A stretch of 6,992 nt of DNA from a virus (Duplodnaviria; Heunggongvirae; Uroviricota; Caudoviricetes), in IMG/VR virus record IMGVR_UViG_2778260997_000016, positions 1-6,992 of that record; one strand, 5' to 3'. Position numbers and translations under genes: made by a program. The notes beneath the pieces are model-generated. The model saw only the letters and a list, made by a program, of their open reading frames with translations. It made no database searches and was not told the DNA's origin. Below, one piece after another: positions 1 through 3,297 of the stretch (positions are counted from its first letter, which is position 1; the number at the start of each line of letters is the position of its first letter).

Positions 1-56
1 GGTATCCGTTCTGCTGAAGTGTCATGGCGTTGATTTTACGGTGACTCTTCGACAGT

Positions 57-83
57 GAAAAGAAAAAAGGCCGCAGAGCGGCC
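57..83 (-). terminator. Rho-independent terminator for the leftward C-int-cargo transcript
   Basis: Perfect inverted repeat GGCCGC-aga-GCGGCC at 69..83. On the minus strand the hairpin is followed directly by TTTTTTCTTTTC (complement of 57..68). It sits about 110 bp downstream of the last minus-strand stop codon (193..195). Confidence 0.55.
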
Positions 84-192
84 ATAATTACATTCAAAAA
101 TCAATAAGTTACATGATTATCAATAACTTACAGACACACAAAAACACAGCCAACCACAGCAAGTAACAGTGATGTGGTCACTTTGTGGATCA

Positions 193-630
193 TCAGCCAA
201 CAAATTTAGCAACAAAATACGCGACCGCCGCCGTGAAAATGGTTGTGCACACTGGCACAATAATGCCACTCCAACGCCACTTCGTATTATCATCAACCTT
301 GTCAAACCGCCGATTCATCTCATCCATAATCTTGTCAAAGCGTTTATCCATCGCTTCGGTAAGCTCACCCTTCAGGCTGTTAATGTCTGATTTGAGCTGC
401 TCTTTCAGGTTAGCTGTATCAGATTTAAGCTCACCTTTCAGATTCGCAATATCGCATTTAAGCTCACCTTTCAGATGAGCAATGTCTGCTTTGAGCTCAC
501 CCTTCACCTCACCAACATCGGCTTTGGTTGAGAGGTTTGTAGTGCGTTCAGCAAGCGTCGCAAGGTCGTTTCTTGTTAGCGATAAATCACTTTCGAGTCG
601 CTCAATTCGCCTTTCAAGTTTATCTGACAT
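193..630 (-). CDS. Tail-anchored coiled-coil membrane protein with five 11-residue repeats (145 aa from ATG at 628..630; the in-frame upstream ATG at 745..747 would give 184 aa)
   Basis: Listed ORF 193..747. The internal ATG at 628..630 is preceded by GGAGGTGGA, while the extra 39 N-terminal residues are Gly/Ser-rich low complexity, so the shorter form is preferred. Five tandem units D-x-x-x-L-K-G-E-L-K-x are followed by a basic stretch and a C-terminal hydrophobic helix WRWSGIIVPVCTTIFTAAVAYFVAKFVG. Architecture resembles small coiled-coil plus C-terminal TM proteins; no homologue confirmed. Confidence 0.65.
   Translation of the reverse strand: MSDKLERRIERLESDLSLTRNDLATLAERTTNLSTKADVGEVKGELKADIAHLKGELKCDIANLKGELKSDTANLKEQLKSDINSLKGELTEAMDKRFDKIMDEMNRRFDKVDDNTKWRWSGIIVPVCTTIFTAAVAYFVAKFVG
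355..519. repeat. Five imperfect tandem 33-bp repeats inside the membrane-protein gene
   Basis: Units at 355..387, 388..420, 421..453, 454..486 and 487..519 share the core (T/G)AGCTCACC(T/C)TTCA. On the minus strand they encode DINSLKGELTE, DTANLKEQLKS, DIANLKGELKS, DIAHLKGELKC and DVGEVKGELKA. Confidence 0.8.
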
Positions 631-730
631 TCCACCTCCACTACTGCCGCCATCGCCGCCATGATAAAGCACATCACGCTCAGAATGCGACATACTACCT
701 GCTGAATTACCGAAAAGGTTTCTTGCTACA

Positions 731-1231
731 TTACCCATTTTCACCATCCTGTGCTTTGTCTTTCTCCAACCACTTCAGCACCGCAGACGTACGGTAAAGG
801 CTCAGGTAACCACAATTCAGGCAATGCAGCGTGTAATAAGTTTTGCGCATATCAGGTATGCTCTTAACATCACCCAAAAAAGTATAAGATACATAATGCT
901 TTATGTTCTCTTTAATTAACTCACTCTGCTCCTCCAAGGGTAGATTGTTAAAATTTTCTGGTTTCTTATTTTTATCCCAGCAAAGATCCATACTTTCAGG
1001 CACAGATAATCGAGACGATCCACATGAAGGGCAGACACTGGAAACCCCCCTCTCAGACAAGAAACGGAAGAAGATTTCTGGCGTAATCTCCATCAGCCGC
1101 TCCTTATGTTTATTGACACGACTCATCGACTTCTTATTGATTTCATCAGCTTCTTCTTTGCATTTATCTTCTATATATTTCGATAGTAAATAGTCATATA
1201 ACTCTTTTTTTGTAGGTTTTTTTATTTCCAT
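731..1231 (-). CDS. Zinc-ribbon-like hypothetical protein (166 aa, two Cys pairs CPSCG and CLNCG), AT-rich cargo gene translationally coupled to int
   Basis: ATG at 1229..1231 lies 2 nt downstream of the int stop (TAA, 1234..1236). The minus-strand sequence reads GGAGGAATGTAACTATGG, placing a GGAGGA Shine-Dalgarno 8 nt upstream of the start, inside the last int codons. The gene is visibly more AT-rich than int or gene A. Lys/Glu-rich N-terminus. Confidence 0.7.
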   Translation of the reverse strand: MEIKKPTKKELYDYLLSKYIEDKCKEEADEINKKSMSRVNKHKERLMEITPEIFFRFLSERGVSSVCPSCGSSRLSVPESMDLCWDKNKKPENFNNLPLEEQSELIKENIKHYVSYTFLGDVKSIPDMRKTYYTLHCLNCGYLSLYRTSAVLKWLEKDKAQDGENG

Positions 1232-1233
1232 AG

Positions 1234-2211
1234 TTACATTCCTCCCAAGGGATTAAACCTCACCGCATCCTGCAGGTAATCCGGCGCAAGATGGGCATAA
1301 ATCATCGTTGTCTGAATCTTTGCGTGCCCCAGAATTTTCTGGAGCGTCAGAATATTGCCGCCGTTCATCATGAAATGACTGGCGAAGGTGTGGCGCAGCG
1401 CATGAACAGCCTGGCCGTCAGGAACATCAGGTGCGACCGTTTTGATGACATCGCGAACCAATGGATAATCCAGCGTCGGAAACACCAGTTTCCCGCCCCG
1501 TTTTTTGATCTTTTCAAACAGGCTTTCAGAAATAGGAACGGTACGGTTTTTGCTGTTCTTCGTTTTTGAAAAAGTGATTCGACAATGAAGAACACGGCGC
1601 TGCTCCAGTGCCGCTACCTCGCCCCATCGCGCCCCGGTCGACAGAAGGATTTCGACAGCCAGCCGTTCATCGGGATTTTCAGCCAGTGCATCCAGCAACT
1701 GAACACATTCAGACTTACTCAGATATCCCATTTCGCGCTCGTTAACCTTCATTCCTTTAAGGCCTTGAACGGGGTTATCGTTAAGAAAATGGCCGGATGA
1801 GATGAGTGCGGTAAACATCGCGCTTAACGCCCCAATCTCTCGATTTATGGTGCTGGGCTGTATCCCCTGCTCTATCCTGGACACACGTAGCTCGGTGAGC
1901 ATCGTTGTATTAAGTTTATGCACGCACGGGTCATCCATTGCCTCACTCAAGCGCAGCAATTTAAGGCGCGTGTTATGCCCTGACTTCATTAGCTGACCGT
2001 GGTATTTCCACCACAAGTCAATAAGCACTGACAGCGGACGGCGATCAATGGAGTTTCCTTTCCACTCATTGTTATGCTGTTGCGCCAGCACCCACCGCTC
2101 ATATAAAACTGCATCCGATTTCGTTTTAAATTTTTTACGAATGCGTTTGCCTTTACGCCCCTCCGGGCGCATGTCAAGAAGATATCCTCCCGGAATTGAT
2201 TTTATGCTCAT
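1234..2211 (-). CDS. int: Tyrosine recombinase, P2-family phage integrase (326 aa)
   Basis: Translation from the ATG at 2209..2211 begins MSIKSIPGGYLLDMRPEGRKGKRIRKKF, typical of P2-like Int N-termini. The C-terminal catalytic region has HALRHTFASH and GHAKIQTTMIYAHL, consistent with the R..HxxR..Y signature. The listed ORF extends to 2361 only as open frame overlapping the repressor 3' end; that extension is rejected. Confidence 0.9.
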   Translation of the reverse strand: MSIKSIPGGYLLDMRPEGRKGKRIRKKFKTKSDAVLYERWVLAQQHNNEWKGNSIDRRPLSVLIDLWWKYHGQLMKSGHNTRLKLLRLSEAMDDPCVHKLNTTMLTELRVSRIEQGIQPSTINREIGALSAMFTALISSGHFLNDNPVQGLKGMKVNEREMGYLSKSECVQLLDALAENPDERLAVEILLSTGARWGEVAALEQRRVLHCRITFSKTKNSKNRTVPISESLFEKIKKRGGKLVFPTLDYPLVRDVIKTVAPDVPDGQAVHALRHTFASHFMMNGGNILTLQKILGHAKIQTTMIYAHLAPDYLQDAVRFNPLGGM

Positions 2212-2260
2212 TCGTGAAACCCCAGCGTTACAAGACCACCATGCCCCCAGCGCTCCATGA

Positions 2261-2569
2261 TTAGCCGGGCTGTGTGCCAGTCTTGCGGGGTTTTTGAGAA
2301 GGCGATGTGCTTTTTGGCCCATCAGGGGAGAGAGACGGACTGATCTGCCCAGCAGCCTCATTTGTTTTTCCCGTCATAAGCCAATTCATGTACTTAAAAA
2401 AGCGAGGGTGATTAACAATCTTGATAAGCACTTCGCCCCCTATGTTTTCAATCCGCCCCGTTTCATAACGACGCAAAGTGCCGATAGGCACATCAATCAG
2501 GCCGCAAAATTCTTCGCGCGTTAAATCCTCTGATTCACGAATCACTCTAATTTTTTCACCGATAAGCAT
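2261..2569 (-). CDS. C: Immunity repressor, P2 C-type (102 aa from ATG at 2567..2569)
   Basis: Translation MLIGEKIRVIRESEDLTREEFCGLIDVPIGTLRRYETGR with a Ser/Pro/Gln-rich tail resembles the P2 C repressor as I recall it. An AGGA Shine-Dalgarno sits 9 nt upstream of the ATG. The listed ORF start at 2605 is a GTG that would lie inside the operator palindrome region. The gene is divergent from the rightward early operon and directly upstream of int. Confidence 0.8.
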   Translation of the reverse strand: MLIGEKIRVIRESEDLTREEFCGLIDVPIGTLRRYETGRIENIGGEVLIKIVNHPRFFKYMNWLMTGKTNEAAGQISPSLSPDGPKSTSPSQKPRKTGTQPG

Positions 2570-2665
2570 TGACAGTGTTCCTATAAGTACACTAAGCTTG
2601 CGCACAAGGTGTACTTATAAGTACACCAGATCACAAACAACCACAGATAGCGCAGGTTATCACAC
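2570..2665. promoter_or_regulatory. Divergent immunity switch region (early rightward and repressor leftward promoters) with operator-like repeats
   Basis: Perfect 20-bp palindrome GGTGTACTTATAAGTACACC at 2608..2627. The 11-mer TATAAGTACAC occurs as a direct repeat at 2582..2592 and 2616..2626. A consensus TTGACA hexamer lies at 2569..2574. Exact -10 elements could not be assigned with confidence. Confidence 0.6.
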
Positions 2666-2944
2666 ATGGCAAAAGTCCTGAACACACACGAACAGGCAGA
2701 CTTTGAGCGTTTAGCAGCGTTCTATCCCTACCGCGATGAGCATGGGTTACCAGTACTTGAAGAAAGCCTGAAAGATTACGCAAAGCGTACCAACCAAGCT
2801 GTTAACACAGTGAAAAGACAGGCTGACAGAGGTTCAATTCCCATCAACCAGGATGAAAAGAACTCAAGACGCACAGTAAATCTCTTCGCTCTTTTCCTGA
2901 AAACAATCAGGAGCGCAGAAAAATACGTGCAGATGACAAAATAA
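2666..2944 (+). CDS. Cox/Apl-position small early protein (92 aa), putative excisionase/switch regulator
   Basis: First gene of the rightward operon, immediately after the switch region, which is where cox (P2) or apl (186) sits. ATG at 2666, stop TAA at 2942..2944. Function assigned by position only; no sequence motif was confirmed. Confidence 0.55.
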   Translation: MAKVLNTHEQADFERLAAFYPYRDEHGLPVLEESLKDYAKRTNQAVNTVKRQADRGSIPINQDEKNSRRTVNLFALFLKTIRSAEKYVQMTK

Positions 2945-2958
2945 CGAGGTGTCATTTT

Positions 2959-3297
2959 ATGCTGAAGCAACGCCGTAATTTTCGTACCGGAACAGAACGC
3001 CACGCTAACCGTTTCACTACCAGTGCATCACGCAGCAACATCCGCTACAGCCTGAGTGATACACACGCAACGCCGGATGGCTACCCAGTAAAACAAATCG
3101 GCGAGCACGCCTGGCTGATTGAGAAAGCTGGAATCGTGATCCACAAATGCCCACGCAATCCGTTTACCGGAAACCGCATTTTTGCATTGAGCTGTGGCGA
3201 CAATCAGTTCGGGCAGGATTTCACATTATACGAAGCACTTCGCACGGTTGATCGTCTGCTTCGCGGGCAAAGTTTTATTAAACAGGCTGATTTATAA
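2959..3297 (+). CDS. Hypothetical early protein (112 aa)
   Basis: ATG at 2959 with GAGGTG Shine-Dalgarno at 2946..2951 (7-nt spacing). Same strand and tight spacing as the rest of the early operon. Confidence 0.6.
   Translation: MLKQRRNFRTGTERHANRFTTSASRSNIRYSLSDTHATPDGYPVKQIGEHAWLIEKAGIVIHKCPRNPFTGNRIFALSCGDNQFGQDFTLYEALRTVDRLLRGQSFIKQADL

What the first reader, a model, noticed from the sequence alone, without database searches (positions are those of the whole stretch)
193..1233. Two-gene cargo module translationally coupled to the integrase: zinc-ribbon protein plus hendecad-repeat membrane protein
In P2-like phages the att site normally follows int closely. Here about 1 kb of extra coding sequence sits between int and the terminator. 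The first gene (731..1231) is visibly AT-rich compared with int and gene A, starts 2 nt after the int stop with a GGAGGA Shine-Dalgarno inside the int 3' end, and encodes a 4-Cys zinc-ribbon-like protein. The second (193..630/747) encodes a coiled-coil, tail-anchored membrane protein. Co-transcription with C and int implies expression in the lysogen, which fits a lysogenic-conversion, superinfection-exclusion or abortive-infection module (nucleic-acid sensor plus membrane effector). That functional reading is hypothesis only.
Basis: partly seen in the sequence, partly recalled or inferred. Interest (0 to 1): 0.8.

Follow-up and report, generated by a model that had tools for sequence, protein, structure and literature searches.

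The report
Prophage zinc-ribbon plus membrane-anchor gene pair
Between the integrase and the attachment site of a P2-like E. coli prophage sits a mobile two-gene cassette (a four-cysteine zinc-ribbon protein plus a tail-anchored coiled-coil membrane protein) that recurs in the lysogeny operons of several unrelated prophage types; it is an uncharacterised candidate for phage exclusion, and its function is untested.

Summary
On the minus strand, a 166-aa 4-Cys protein (731..1231) starts 2 nt after the int stop. A tail-anchored hendecad coiled-coil protein follows. Its true start is ATG 738 (181 aa, 8-nt overlap), not 747 or 630. The "terminator" is the 25-bp att core (59..83), a copy of the ihfA terminator, so both genes are phage cargo between attL and int.

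Among 299 E. coli genomes with this integrase, the slot holds either this kind of pair (about 140 genomes, at least four very divergent alleles) or one unrelated 131-aa gene (158 genomes).

The pair always travels together. It appears in P2-like (C-int-pair), 186-like (cI...pair-int) and lambdoid (cI-pair, the rexAB position) prophages.

A 590-bp segment (zinc-ribbon gene plus the partner's N-terminal peptide) is swapped as a unit, with one breakpoint in a Gly-linker.

There are no PADLOC or significant Pfam hits, no structural neighbours and no literature.

The zinc-ribbon proteins are mostly acidic, which argues against "nucleic-acid sensor".

My best reading is a lysogen-expressed, Rex-like exclusion or abortive-infection module with an XhlA-like membrane effector (about 0.4). 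The function is inferred, not shown.

The parts
59..83 (.). att core (attL), AAAGAAAAAAGGCCGCAGAGCGGCC. It is the duplicated host ihfA terminator. On the minus strand, the hairpin at 83..69 plus a T-run ends the phage C-int-cargo transcript.
   Evidence: The same 25 bp recur at the other prophage end, next to ihfA. The terminator scan finds it. Host btuC begins just left of the window.
84..192 (.). Phage arm of attL, non-coding. It contains the direct repeat ATCAATAA[G/C]TTACA at 100-113 and 119-132.
   Evidence: The region is 94% identical in the L002 prophage.
193..738 (-). Gene 2: a 181-aa tail-anchored membrane protein. Domain order: N-terminal peptide (661..738), Gly-rich linker GGDGGSSGGG (631..660), helix, beta-layer motif LSTKAD (517..534), hendecad stalk (about 340..504), TM helix (about 208..264), tail KFVG.
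   Evidence: Pfam CCDC90-like scores 25.8 bits, below the 33.5 cut-off. phrog_9415 matches at 3e-15 with unknown function.
731..1231 (-). Gene 1: a 166-aa cytoplasmic 4-Cys zinc-ribbon-like protein (CPSC at 67-70, CLNC at 137-140). It has a long N-terminal helix and a C-terminal helix with an invariant Trp.
   Evidence: phrog_4293 matches at 1e-22 with unknown function. No Pfam family reaches its threshold.
652..1241 (-). Exchangeable cassette: the zinc-ribbon gene plus the codons for the partner's N-terminal peptide. It is replaced by 480 bp with no detectable DNA similarity in prophages whose flanks are 96-99% identical. The left breakpoint lies in the Gly-linker codons and the right breakpoint in the last codons of int.
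   Evidence: blastn of the window against L002 finds homology only at 1..651 and 1242..3000. The encoded zinc-ribbon proteins are 25% identical, E 1e-11.
1240..1245 (-). Shine-Dalgarno GGAGGA for gene 1, inside the 3' end of int.
   Evidence: Read directly from the sequence.
1234..2211 (-). P2-type tyrosine integrase (325 aa).
   Evidence: Pfam Int_N 2e-28 and Phage_integrase 4e-20. PGAP coordinates in L001.
2261..2572 (-). C-type immunity repressor (HTH_3). It is the first gene of the presumed C-int-gene1-gene2 transcript.
   Evidence: Pfam and PHROG (phrog_147, 3e-30) hits. PGAP annotation.

Best explanation
The region is a horizontally mobile two-gene accessory cassette. It sits in the int-attL cargo slot of a P2-like prophage integrated at the ihfA terminator, next to btuC.

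What is shown:
- Gene 1 encodes a soluble four-cysteine zinc-ribbon protein.
- Gene 2 encodes a tail-anchored inner-membrane protein. Its parts, in order, are a short N-terminal peptide that is disordered in the model, a glycine-rich linker, a hendecad coiled-coil stalk that begins with a beta-layer motif, and one C-terminal transmembrane helix.
- The two genes overlap, always occur together, and are nearly always embedded in the repressor/integrase (lysogeny) operon of temperate phages.
- The zinc-ribbon gene and the partner's N-terminal peptide are exchanged as one unit. The stalk and anchor behave as a second unit.

What is inferred:
- The pair is expressed in the lysogen from the C promoter and terminated at the att-core hairpin.
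- The zinc-ribbon protein docks on the partner's N-terminal peptide and so sits tethered under the membrane. It acts as the specificity (sensor or regulator) part.
- When a superinfecting phage perturbs this complex, the XhlA-like coiled-coil anchor oligomerises and compromises the inner membrane, aborting or excluding the infection.
- In logic and genomic position this is a Rex-like module, but it is built from unrelated proteins.
For: Cargo status:
- The att core at 59..83 is repeated at the far prophage end, so the genes lie inside the element.
- GC drops to 0.385 in gene 1.

The slot is variable among the 299 E. coli genomes that carry this integrase:
- 158 carry one unrelated 131-aa gene.
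- 86 carry an SE11-type pair.
- 39 carry the window-type stalk. Of these, 23 have the window's cassette and 14 have a different cassette.
- 15 carry a further pair allele.

The pairing was found in every locus fetched:
- Each locus retrieved with either protein has a 4-Cys gene immediately followed by, and overlapping or abutting, a gene for N-peptide, Gly-linker, coiled coil and TM.

Lysogeny-operon position:
- C-int-pair-att in P2-like elements.
- cI...pair-int in a 186-like element.
- cI-pair directly downstream of the repressor in a lambdoid prophage and in Enterobacter phage BHUENT6.
- Genes in that position include the exclusion system rexAB (PMC11077077).

Modularity:
- The breakpoints are at 651/652 and 1241/1242.
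- E. coli-type and Salmonella-type stalks each occur with both zinc-ribbon types, and the N-peptide follows the zinc-ribbon type.
- Mantel test: zinc-ribbon versus N-peptide similarity rho 0.23, p 0.011. Zinc-ribbon versus stalk rho -0.05, p 0.62.

Membrane-effector hint:
- Short partner homologues give sub-threshold XhlA hits of 30.5, 24.3, 20.2 and 17.6 bits against a cut-off of 34.7.
- XhlA is a membrane protein required with the holin XhlB for PBSX lysis (PMC6834076, PMC5589764).

Hotspot context:
- The int-att region and the cI-int region are reported defence hotspots in P2-like phages (PMC13586616; PMC9122126).
Against: - There is no experimental or homology link to any defence system. 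PADLOC gives only coiled-coil noise.
- No expression data exist, and co-transcription is inferred only.
- The docking of the zinc-ribbon protein on the N-peptide rests on co-inheritance and a weak Mantel signal. The window's own N-peptide is barely alignable to the Salmonella and Providencia peptides that accompany related zinc-ribbon proteins (similarity 0.04 and -0.02).
- XhlA and CCDC90-like matches are all below the curated thresholds.
- Stalk length varies from 42 to 154 residues, and it is not obvious why an effector would tolerate this.
- Genes co-transcribed with repressors can instead tune the lysogeny switch, as RexA and 434 Hex do (10.1101/2021.04.19.439022; PMC3564112).
Confidence: 0.4

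Rival explanations
1. Toxin-antitoxin-like addiction or stabilisation module. The upstream acidic zinc-ribbon protein neutralises a membrane-damaging tail-anchored toxin. The pair stabilises the prophage, or the int end of it, rather than sensing phages.
For: - The arrangement is typical of type II TA pairs: a small acidic upstream gene overlapping the downstream gene by 1-17 nt.
- The downstream protein is small, oligomerising and single-TM, with XhlA-like features.
- The other end of the same prophage carries a Hok/Gef toxin gene, so membrane toxins are cargo here.
Against: - No antitoxin-type DNA-binding domain was detected.
- In L029 the zinc-ribbon gene is truncated by an IS element while the partner ORF stays intact. 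That is hard to reconcile with an unneutralised lethal toxin, unless expression was lost.
- The hypervariability is concentrated in the presumed antitoxin plus its docking peptide. That pattern fits a specificity arms race better than plain addiction.
Confidence: 0.2
2. The pair modulates the phage's own lysogeny-lysis decision or integration and excision. It would be analogous to RexA biasing the lambda switch or to 434 Hex protecting the repressor. One version: a membrane-tethered factor that sequesters or releases a regulator.
For: - The pair is tightly embedded in and translationally coupled to repressor or integrase genes in three phage types.
- There is precedent for non-defence roles of genes co-transcribed with repressors (10.1101/2021.04.19.439022; PMC3564112).
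Against: - 53% of prophages with the same integrase (98-99% identical) carry an unrelated 131-aa gene instead.
- The pair associates with unrelated repressor and integrase families. In Providencia it sits next to ogr, away from int.
- tblastn of the deposited-phage collection recovers the pair only in one Klebsiella P2-like record and three Enterobacter phages.
Confidence: 0.15
3. Classical superinfection exclusion at the inner membrane. The tail-anchored protein blocks DNA entry of incoming phages, and the zinc-ribbon protein is an assembly or stability factor.
For: - The pair combines a membrane location with a lysogeny-operon position.
- Many prophage Sie proteins are small inner-membrane proteins (general knowledge).
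Against: - Only 1-17 residues lie beyond the TM helix, so almost nothing is exposed to the periplasm where ejection machinery acts.
- All the variable, apparently specificity-determining parts are cytoplasmic.
Confidence: 0.1
4. Host-physiology conversion unrelated to phages. The protein would be a tail-anchored scaffold comparable to ElaB/YqjD or MCUR1-type proteins, tethering a partner to the membrane for stress or metabolic effects.
For: NCBI names the protein DUF1640/CCDC90 family. Eukaryotic members of that family are membrane scaffolds (PMC7519068 abstract).
Against: - The Pfam score is below threshold, and no separate N-terminal domain is present: only about 26 disordered residues precede the linker.
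- The family was found here almost exclusively in prophages and phages.
- The allelic hypervariability is atypical for housekeeping scaffolds.
Confidence: 0.07

Closest known systems
Lambda RexA/RexB (genes co-transcribed with the cI repressor; exclusion by membrane depolarisation)
   Same: - Both are two genes in the lysogeny operon. In the lambdoid loci L038 and L042 the pair lies immediately downstream of the repressor.
- Both pair one soluble protein with one membrane protein.
- The proposed logic is the same: a sensor plus a membrane effector.
   Different: - No sequence or fold similarity was detected.
- RexB is a polytopic membrane protein, whereas this partner has a single C-terminal TM helix.
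- RexA binds DNA (PMC11077077), whereas most of these zinc-ribbon proteins are acidic.
- Function here is untested.
XhlA (PF10779), the membrane protein of the PBSX xhlA-xhlB-xlyA lysis cassette
   Same: - Both are small proteins with a coiled coil followed by one C-terminal TM helix.
- Short partner homologues give XhlA hits of 17.6-30.5 bits.
- XhlA contributes to membrane permeabilisation together with a holin (PMC6834076, PMC5589764).
   Different: - All scores are below the 34.7-bit cut-off, and the window protein gives no XhlA hit.
- The genes sit in the lysogeny operon, not the lysis cassette, and no holin or endolysin lies next to them.
- The N-peptide, the Gly-linker and the obligate zinc-ribbon partner are extra features.
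DUF1640 / CCDC90-like (PF07798; MCUR1, CCDC90B and prokaryotic relatives)
   Same: - Both are coiled-coil stalk proteins with a C-terminal membrane anchor.
- The stalk starts with the beta-layer motif [aliphatic]-A/S-T-K-polar-[DE] described for DUF1640 (PMC4786415). Here it is L-S-T-K-A-D, where the AF2 helix breaks.
- NCBI annotates close homologues as DUF1640/CCDC90 family.
   Different: - The Pfam score is 25.8 bits against a 33.5 cut-off.
- Only a roughly 26-residue disordered peptide and a Gly-linker precede the coiled coil, with no separate N-terminal domain.
- The stalk is a hendecad repeat of variable copy number.
- The protein is always paired with a zinc-ribbon gene.
Accessory or defence hotspots of P2-like phages (old, tin, Z/fun loci; int-att and cI-int slots)
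   Same: - The slot occupied here is the one reported as a minor defence hotspot, holding 3% of P2 systems (PMC13586616).
- The cI-int slot of the 186-like locus matches the hotspot described for K139-like phages (PMC9122126).
- Alternative contents occur in near-identical prophages.
   Different: The occupants here are not recognised by PADLOC, and no phenotype is known.

Membership tests
Zinc ribbon (generic 4-Cys, two CxxC knuckles) | Two CxxC knuckles whose four Cys are conserved across the family | tested here: met
   C67, C70, C137 and C140 are invariant in 32 sequences with a mean column identity of 25%.
Zinc ribbon (generic 4-Cys, two CxxC knuckles) | Match to a curated zinc-ribbon Pfam or NCBIfam model, or a significant structural neighbour | tested here: not met
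   [not shown]
Zinc ribbon (generic 4-Cys, two CxxC knuckles) | Zinc actually bound | not testable with these tools
   This needs metal analysis of purified protein.
DUF1640 / CCDC90-like (PF07798) | Pfam gathering score reached | tested here: not met
   25.8 bits against 33.5 for the window protein. Homologues score 25.2 and 20.4.
DUF1640 / CCDC90-like (PF07798) | Beta-layer motif [aliphatic]-A-T-K-[polar]-[DE] at the start of the stalk (PMC4786415) | tested here: met
   L-S-T-K-A-D is at residues 69-74 of the 181-aa protein. T74, K75 and D77 (184-aa numbering) are invariant in 22 homologues. The AF2 helix breaks at exactly this point.
DUF1640 / CCDC90-like (PF07798) | C-terminal membrane anchor | tested here: met
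   There is one hydrophobic helix at residues 159-177, followed by a 4-residue tail.
DUF1640 / CCDC90-like (PF07798) | Folded N-terminal head domain and trimeric assembly (Adlakha et al. 2019, cited from memory) | tested here: not met
   Head: residues 1-38 are disordered (pLDDT below 50), and only 26 residues precede the linker. Trimer: not testable with a monomer prediction.
XhlA (PF10779) | Pfam gathering score reached, and location in a holin-endolysin lysis cassette | tested here: not met
   The window protein gives no hit. Short homologues score 17.6-30.5 bits against 34.7. The neighbouring genes are repressor, integrase and att, not lysis genes.
RexAB-type exclusion system | Homology to RexA or RexB | tested here: not met
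   No Pfam, PADLOC or PDB match.
RexAB-type exclusion system | Two genes co-oriented with and downstream of the immunity repressor, expressed in lysogens | tested here: inconclusive
   The position criterion is met in L038 and L042, and met via int in the window. Expression was not tested.
Known anti-phage defence systems (PADLOC-DB v2) | Significant match of either protein to a defence-system model | tested here: not met
   Only low-scoring coiled-coil matches to LmuB, ZorA or LeoBC (22 bits or less). Nothing for five zinc-ribbon alleles.
Type II toxin-antitoxin | Small upstream neutraliser overlapping a downstream toxin; the toxin is toxic alone | tested here: inconclusive
   The gene arrangement and the acidic upstream protein fit. 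Toxicity and neutralisation cannot be tested here.

The most novel reading that the evidence does not exclude
The pair is a previously undescribed two-component prophage immunity system that is widespread in Enterobacterales prophages. Its effector is a conserved tail-anchored alpha/beta coiled-coil protein related to XhlA and DUF1640. That effector is armed by a freely exchangeable 'zinc-ribbon plus docking-peptide' cassette, which sets the specificity for the phages that trigger it. The arrangement would be a plug-in sensor on a constant membrane effector, recombining at a glycine-linker hinge.
Probability: 0.3. Interest if true: 0.75.

Novelty: new variant of a known kind. Interest (0 to 1): 0.55.

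Why it matters
If the pair is an exclusion or abortive-infection system, it would matter in several ways:
- It would add a compact (about 1 kb) defence type. About 2.6% of complete E. coli genomes carry it at this one site, including O157:H7, O145 and O103 lineages.
- It would give a first functional handle on bacterial DUF1640/XhlA-like tail-anchored coiled-coil proteins.
- It would offer a clean natural example of sensor-module swapping at a defined hinge, which makes specificity directly testable by cassette exchange.

There are also practical annotation points. One allele of the zinc-ribbon gene is left unannotated by PGAP, and the partner gene is started at an internal Met. Both errors hide the pair from gene-based surveys of hotspots.

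Tried and rejected
- **Known defence families.** PADLOC on seven proteins of the pair gave only coiled-coil noise, and the alternative 131-aa occupant gave no hit. I rejected membership of any listed system.
- **AF2 on a zinc-ribbon plus N-peptide fusion.** The second job went to the partner as a monomer. It gave low confidence (pLDDT 56) and was useful only for the disorder, helix and TM layout.
- **My first census was wrong.** I took the 300 megablast hits to mean that every prophage with this integrase carries the pair. Targeted searches showed that 158 carry an unrelated gene. The early notebook entries carry this error, and it is corrected in notebook entry 4.
- **'Molecular ruler' idea for the stalk.** I rejected this because stalk length ranges from 42 to 154 residues.
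- **DksA/TraR-like or Ogr-like zinc finger.** There is no Pfam hit, and the knuckle spacing of 66 residues does not fit.
- **Apolipoprotein-like lipid-surface 11-mer helix.** The hydrophobic stripe is only three positions per 11 residues, flanked by Lys on one side and Asp/Glu on the other. This favours a coiled-coil core (sequence reading).
- **Other searches.** Rfam on the whole window found nothing. The genome-contig scan returned only two loci. The broad alignment A3 was too divergent for the locus finder. Literature searches by accession number and by DUF1640 plus defence found nothing relevant. No supplements were held for the 2026 P2 census.
Full report
**1. What is in the sequence**

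The window is the left end of a P2-like prophage of E. coli.
- On the minus strand lie C (2261..2572), int (1234..2211), a 166-aa ORF (731..1231) and a 184-aa ORF (193..747).
- int ends at TAA 1236..1234. The next ATG is at 1231, preceded by GGAGGA at 1245..1240.
- GC content is 0.385 in the 166-aa gene and 0.458 in the second gene, against 0.495 in int and 0.563 in the gene A region.
- The only terminator-like element downstream is the hairpin at 83..69 plus a T-run.
- No promoter-like site lies on the minus strand within int or the two genes, and the promoter-like hits in the whole region do not exceed chance.

**2. The terminator is the att core, so the genes are phage cargo**

- The phage therefore integrates into the ihfA terminator and regenerates it at both ends.
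- The two genes lie between attL and int, and so between attP and int in the phage circle.
- This slot is unusual but documented. [quoted passage not shown]

**3. Gene 1**

- CxxC motifs sit at residues 67-70 and 137-140.
- A word-seeded search found 18 clusters in E. coli, Shigella, Salmonella and Providencia. An exhaustive profile search found 89 clusters at 50% identity.
- In 32 diverse members (mean column identity 25%), the four Cys and W154 are the only invariant residues.
- The AF2 model (pLDDT 82.8) shows a long N-terminal helix, a short helix, beta strands around the two knuckles and a C-terminal helix.
- No Pfam or NCBIfam model is reached. phrog_4293, of unknown function, matches at 1e-22.
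- Ten of 12 family members examined are acidic, with pI 5.1-5.5. The window protein has pI 7.55. This speaks against a general nucleic-acid-binding role.

**4. Gene 2**

- Homologues show that the residues upstream of PGAP's start (Met at 630) are coding. Two classes of N-terminal peptide, followed by a Gly-rich linker (GGxxGGxGGG-M), are conserved at the protein level across E. coli, Salmonella, Klebsiella and Citrobacter.
- The best start is ATG 738, giving 181 aa. This is the form called on 150 contigs (P0019). It overlaps gene 1 by 8 nt (ATGGGTAA), exactly as in Salmonella (ATGAGTAA).
- The architecture of the 181-aa protein is:
  - N-terminal peptide, residues 1-26.
  - Gly-rich linker, residues 27-36.
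  - A first helix.
  - L-S-T-K-A-D at residues 69-74.
  - Five 11-residue units (KGELKADIAHL and variants).
  - A further helix.
  - A TM helix at residues 159-177.
  - A four-residue tail.
- TRF finds 4.5 copies of a 33-bp unit.
- The hydrophobic periodicity is 3.69-3.70 residues, with no power at 3.5. The stalk is therefore a hendecad (11/3) repeat.
- LSTKAD matches the beta-layer motif that Hartmann et al. described at the start of the stalk of DUF1640 membrane proteins (PMC4786415). The AF2 monomer breaks its helix exactly there and leaves residues 1-38 disordered (low confidence, pLDDT 56).
- Allele lengths of 148, 159, 170, 181 and 192 aa show copy-number variation of the hendecad.
- Pfam CCDC90-like scores 25.8 bits, below its 33.5 cut-off.

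**5. The two genes are a unit**

- Every locus fetched with either protein has the same pair. A 4-Cys gene is followed at once by a gene for N-peptide, Gly-linker, coiled coil (often with an ATK[A/S]D motif) and C-terminal TM. The second gene either overlaps the first or begins at a GTG directly after its stop.
- Partner length ranges from 91 to 220 aa, with stalks of 42-154 residues.
- Short partners give sub-threshold hits to XhlA (30.5, 24.3, 20.2 and 17.6 bits against 34.7). Long partners give sub-threshold hits to CCDC90-like.
- XhlA is a membrane protein required together with the holin XhlB for lysis by the PBSX prophage (PMC6834076, PMC5589764).

**6. Where the pair sits**

- In P2-like prophages of E. 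coli, Salmonella, Klebsiella and others, the order is C, int, pair, att.
- In a 186-like prophage, the order is repressor, two other genes, pair, int. This is the cI-int hotspot noted by Rousset et al. for K139-like phages (PMC9122126).
- In a lambdoid prophage, the repressor's stop overlaps the start of the zinc-ribbon gene.
- In Enterobacter phage BHUENT6, the pair follows a LexA-type cI directly.
- This last position is that of rexA-rexB in lambda (PMC11077077).
- Two exceptions were found. In a Providencia P2-like element the pair sits next to ogr. A short metagenomic contig places it near a tape-measure gene.

**7. The slot and the cassette are variable**

The integrase occurs in 299 of 5,426 complete E. 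coli genomes. Targeted searches partition the slot as follows:

| Slot content | Genomes |
|---|---|
| One unrelated 131-aa gene with no Pfam or PADLOC hit (O104:H4 C227-11, O26:H11 11368, E2348/69) | 158 |
| SE11-type pair | 86 |
| Window-type stalk (23 with the window's cassette, 14 with the L002 cassette) | 39 |
| A further pair allele | 15 |

- Between the window and L002, the flanks are 96.2% (1..651) and 99.2% (1242..3000) identical. The 590 bp in between are replaced by 480 bp with no detectable DNA similarity.
- That replacement segment still encodes a 4-Cys protein (25% identity, E 1e-11) and a different N-peptide.
- PGAP does not annotate this allele of the zinc-ribbon gene.
- The left breakpoint lies in the Gly-linker codons.
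- E. coli-type and Salmonella-type stalks each occur with both zinc-ribbon types, and the N-peptide follows the zinc-ribbon type.
- Across 14 pairs, zinc-ribbon similarity correlates weakly with N-peptide similarity (Mantel rho 0.23, p 0.011) and not with stalk similarity (rho -0.05, p 0.62).
- The N-peptides evolve fast. The window's own peptide is hardly alignable to those of related zinc-ribbon alleles. The case for physical docking is therefore suggestive only.

**8. Interpretation**

Shown:
- The region is a mobile two-gene cassette in a variable cargo slot.
- The genes are translationally coupled.
- The pair is nearly always in a lysogeny operon.
- The cassette is modular at a Gly-linker hinge.

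Inferred:
- The pair is expressed in lysogens.
- The zinc-ribbon protein docks on the N-peptide.
- The zinc-ribbon protein plus peptide act as the specificity part, and the coiled-coil anchor acts as the membrane effector.
- The outcome is exclusion or abortive infection of other phages.

The evidence favouring a conflict function is circumstantial. It consists of the hotspot location, the rexAB-like position, extreme allelic divergence confined to one module between near-identical flanks, alternative occupants of the slot, and the XhlA-like nature of the membrane protein. I put this reading at about 0.4.

The rivals are a TA-like addiction module (0.2), a modulator of the phage's own switch or integration (0.15; compare RexA and 434 Hex, 10.1101/2021.04.19.439022 and PMC3564112), entry-blocking exclusion (0.1) and a host-physiology scaffold (0.07).

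**9. Comparison with the known, and novelty**

- The gene families exist in catalogues: phrog_4293, phrog_9415 and NCBI's "DUF1640/CCDC90 family" label.
- I found no description of the pair as a system. There is no PADLOC model and no paper linking DUF1640/CCDC90, XhlA-like proteins or these accession numbers to prophage exclusion.
- I classify it as a new variant of a known kind, namely a lysogeny-operon accessory or exclusion cassette built from uncharacterised parts.
- Interest is 0.55. It is a concrete, easily testable candidate with an unusual modular design, but it has no functional evidence yet.

Noticed in passing
window 82-95 and 1228-1241: A 14-nt direct repeat, CCATAATTACATTC and CCATAGTTACATTC (13/14), brackets the whole two-gene module. 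One copy abuts the att core and the other spans the int stop and the gene 1 start. It may be a scar of the insertion that placed the cassette between int and att. The L002 allele lacks the att-side copy.
   Followed up: partly
window 100-113 and 119-132: The direct repeat ATCAATAA[G/C]TTACA, spaced 19 bp apart, lies in the phage arm of attL. These are candidate Int arm-type or IHF binding sites.
   Followed up: no
L002 6625..7023 (-) and window 631..738: RefSeq/PGAP leaves the divergent (type 2) zinc-ribbon gene unannotated in TUM1880, the one such genome whose annotation was inspected. It also starts the membrane-protein gene at an internal Met, dropping the conserved N-terminal peptide and Gly-linker. 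Gene-based hotspot surveys would see one gene instead of a pair.
   Followed up: yes
L010 2931-3563: The partner protein of a 186-like prophage carries six tandem 9-residue units, (F/T)ATKADLQ(N/S). This is the beta-layer motif repeated in nonad spacing, and would be a natural candidate for the alpha/beta coiled coil described by Hartmann et al. 2016.
   Followed up: no
L043 1082..1477 (-) (O104:H4 C227-11; also O26:H11 11368 and E2348/69): The alternative occupant of the same int-att slot is a 131-aa orphan protein with no Pfam or PADLOC hit. It is present in 158 complete E. coli genomes.
   Followed up: partly
[not shown]
   Followed up: no
L029 1747-3375: An IS-type transposase gene lies just upstream of the zinc-ribbon gene, whose 5' part is missing. 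The partner ORF (141 aa) remains intact. This is relevant to the toxin-antitoxin reading.
   Followed up: no
[not shown]
   Followed up: no
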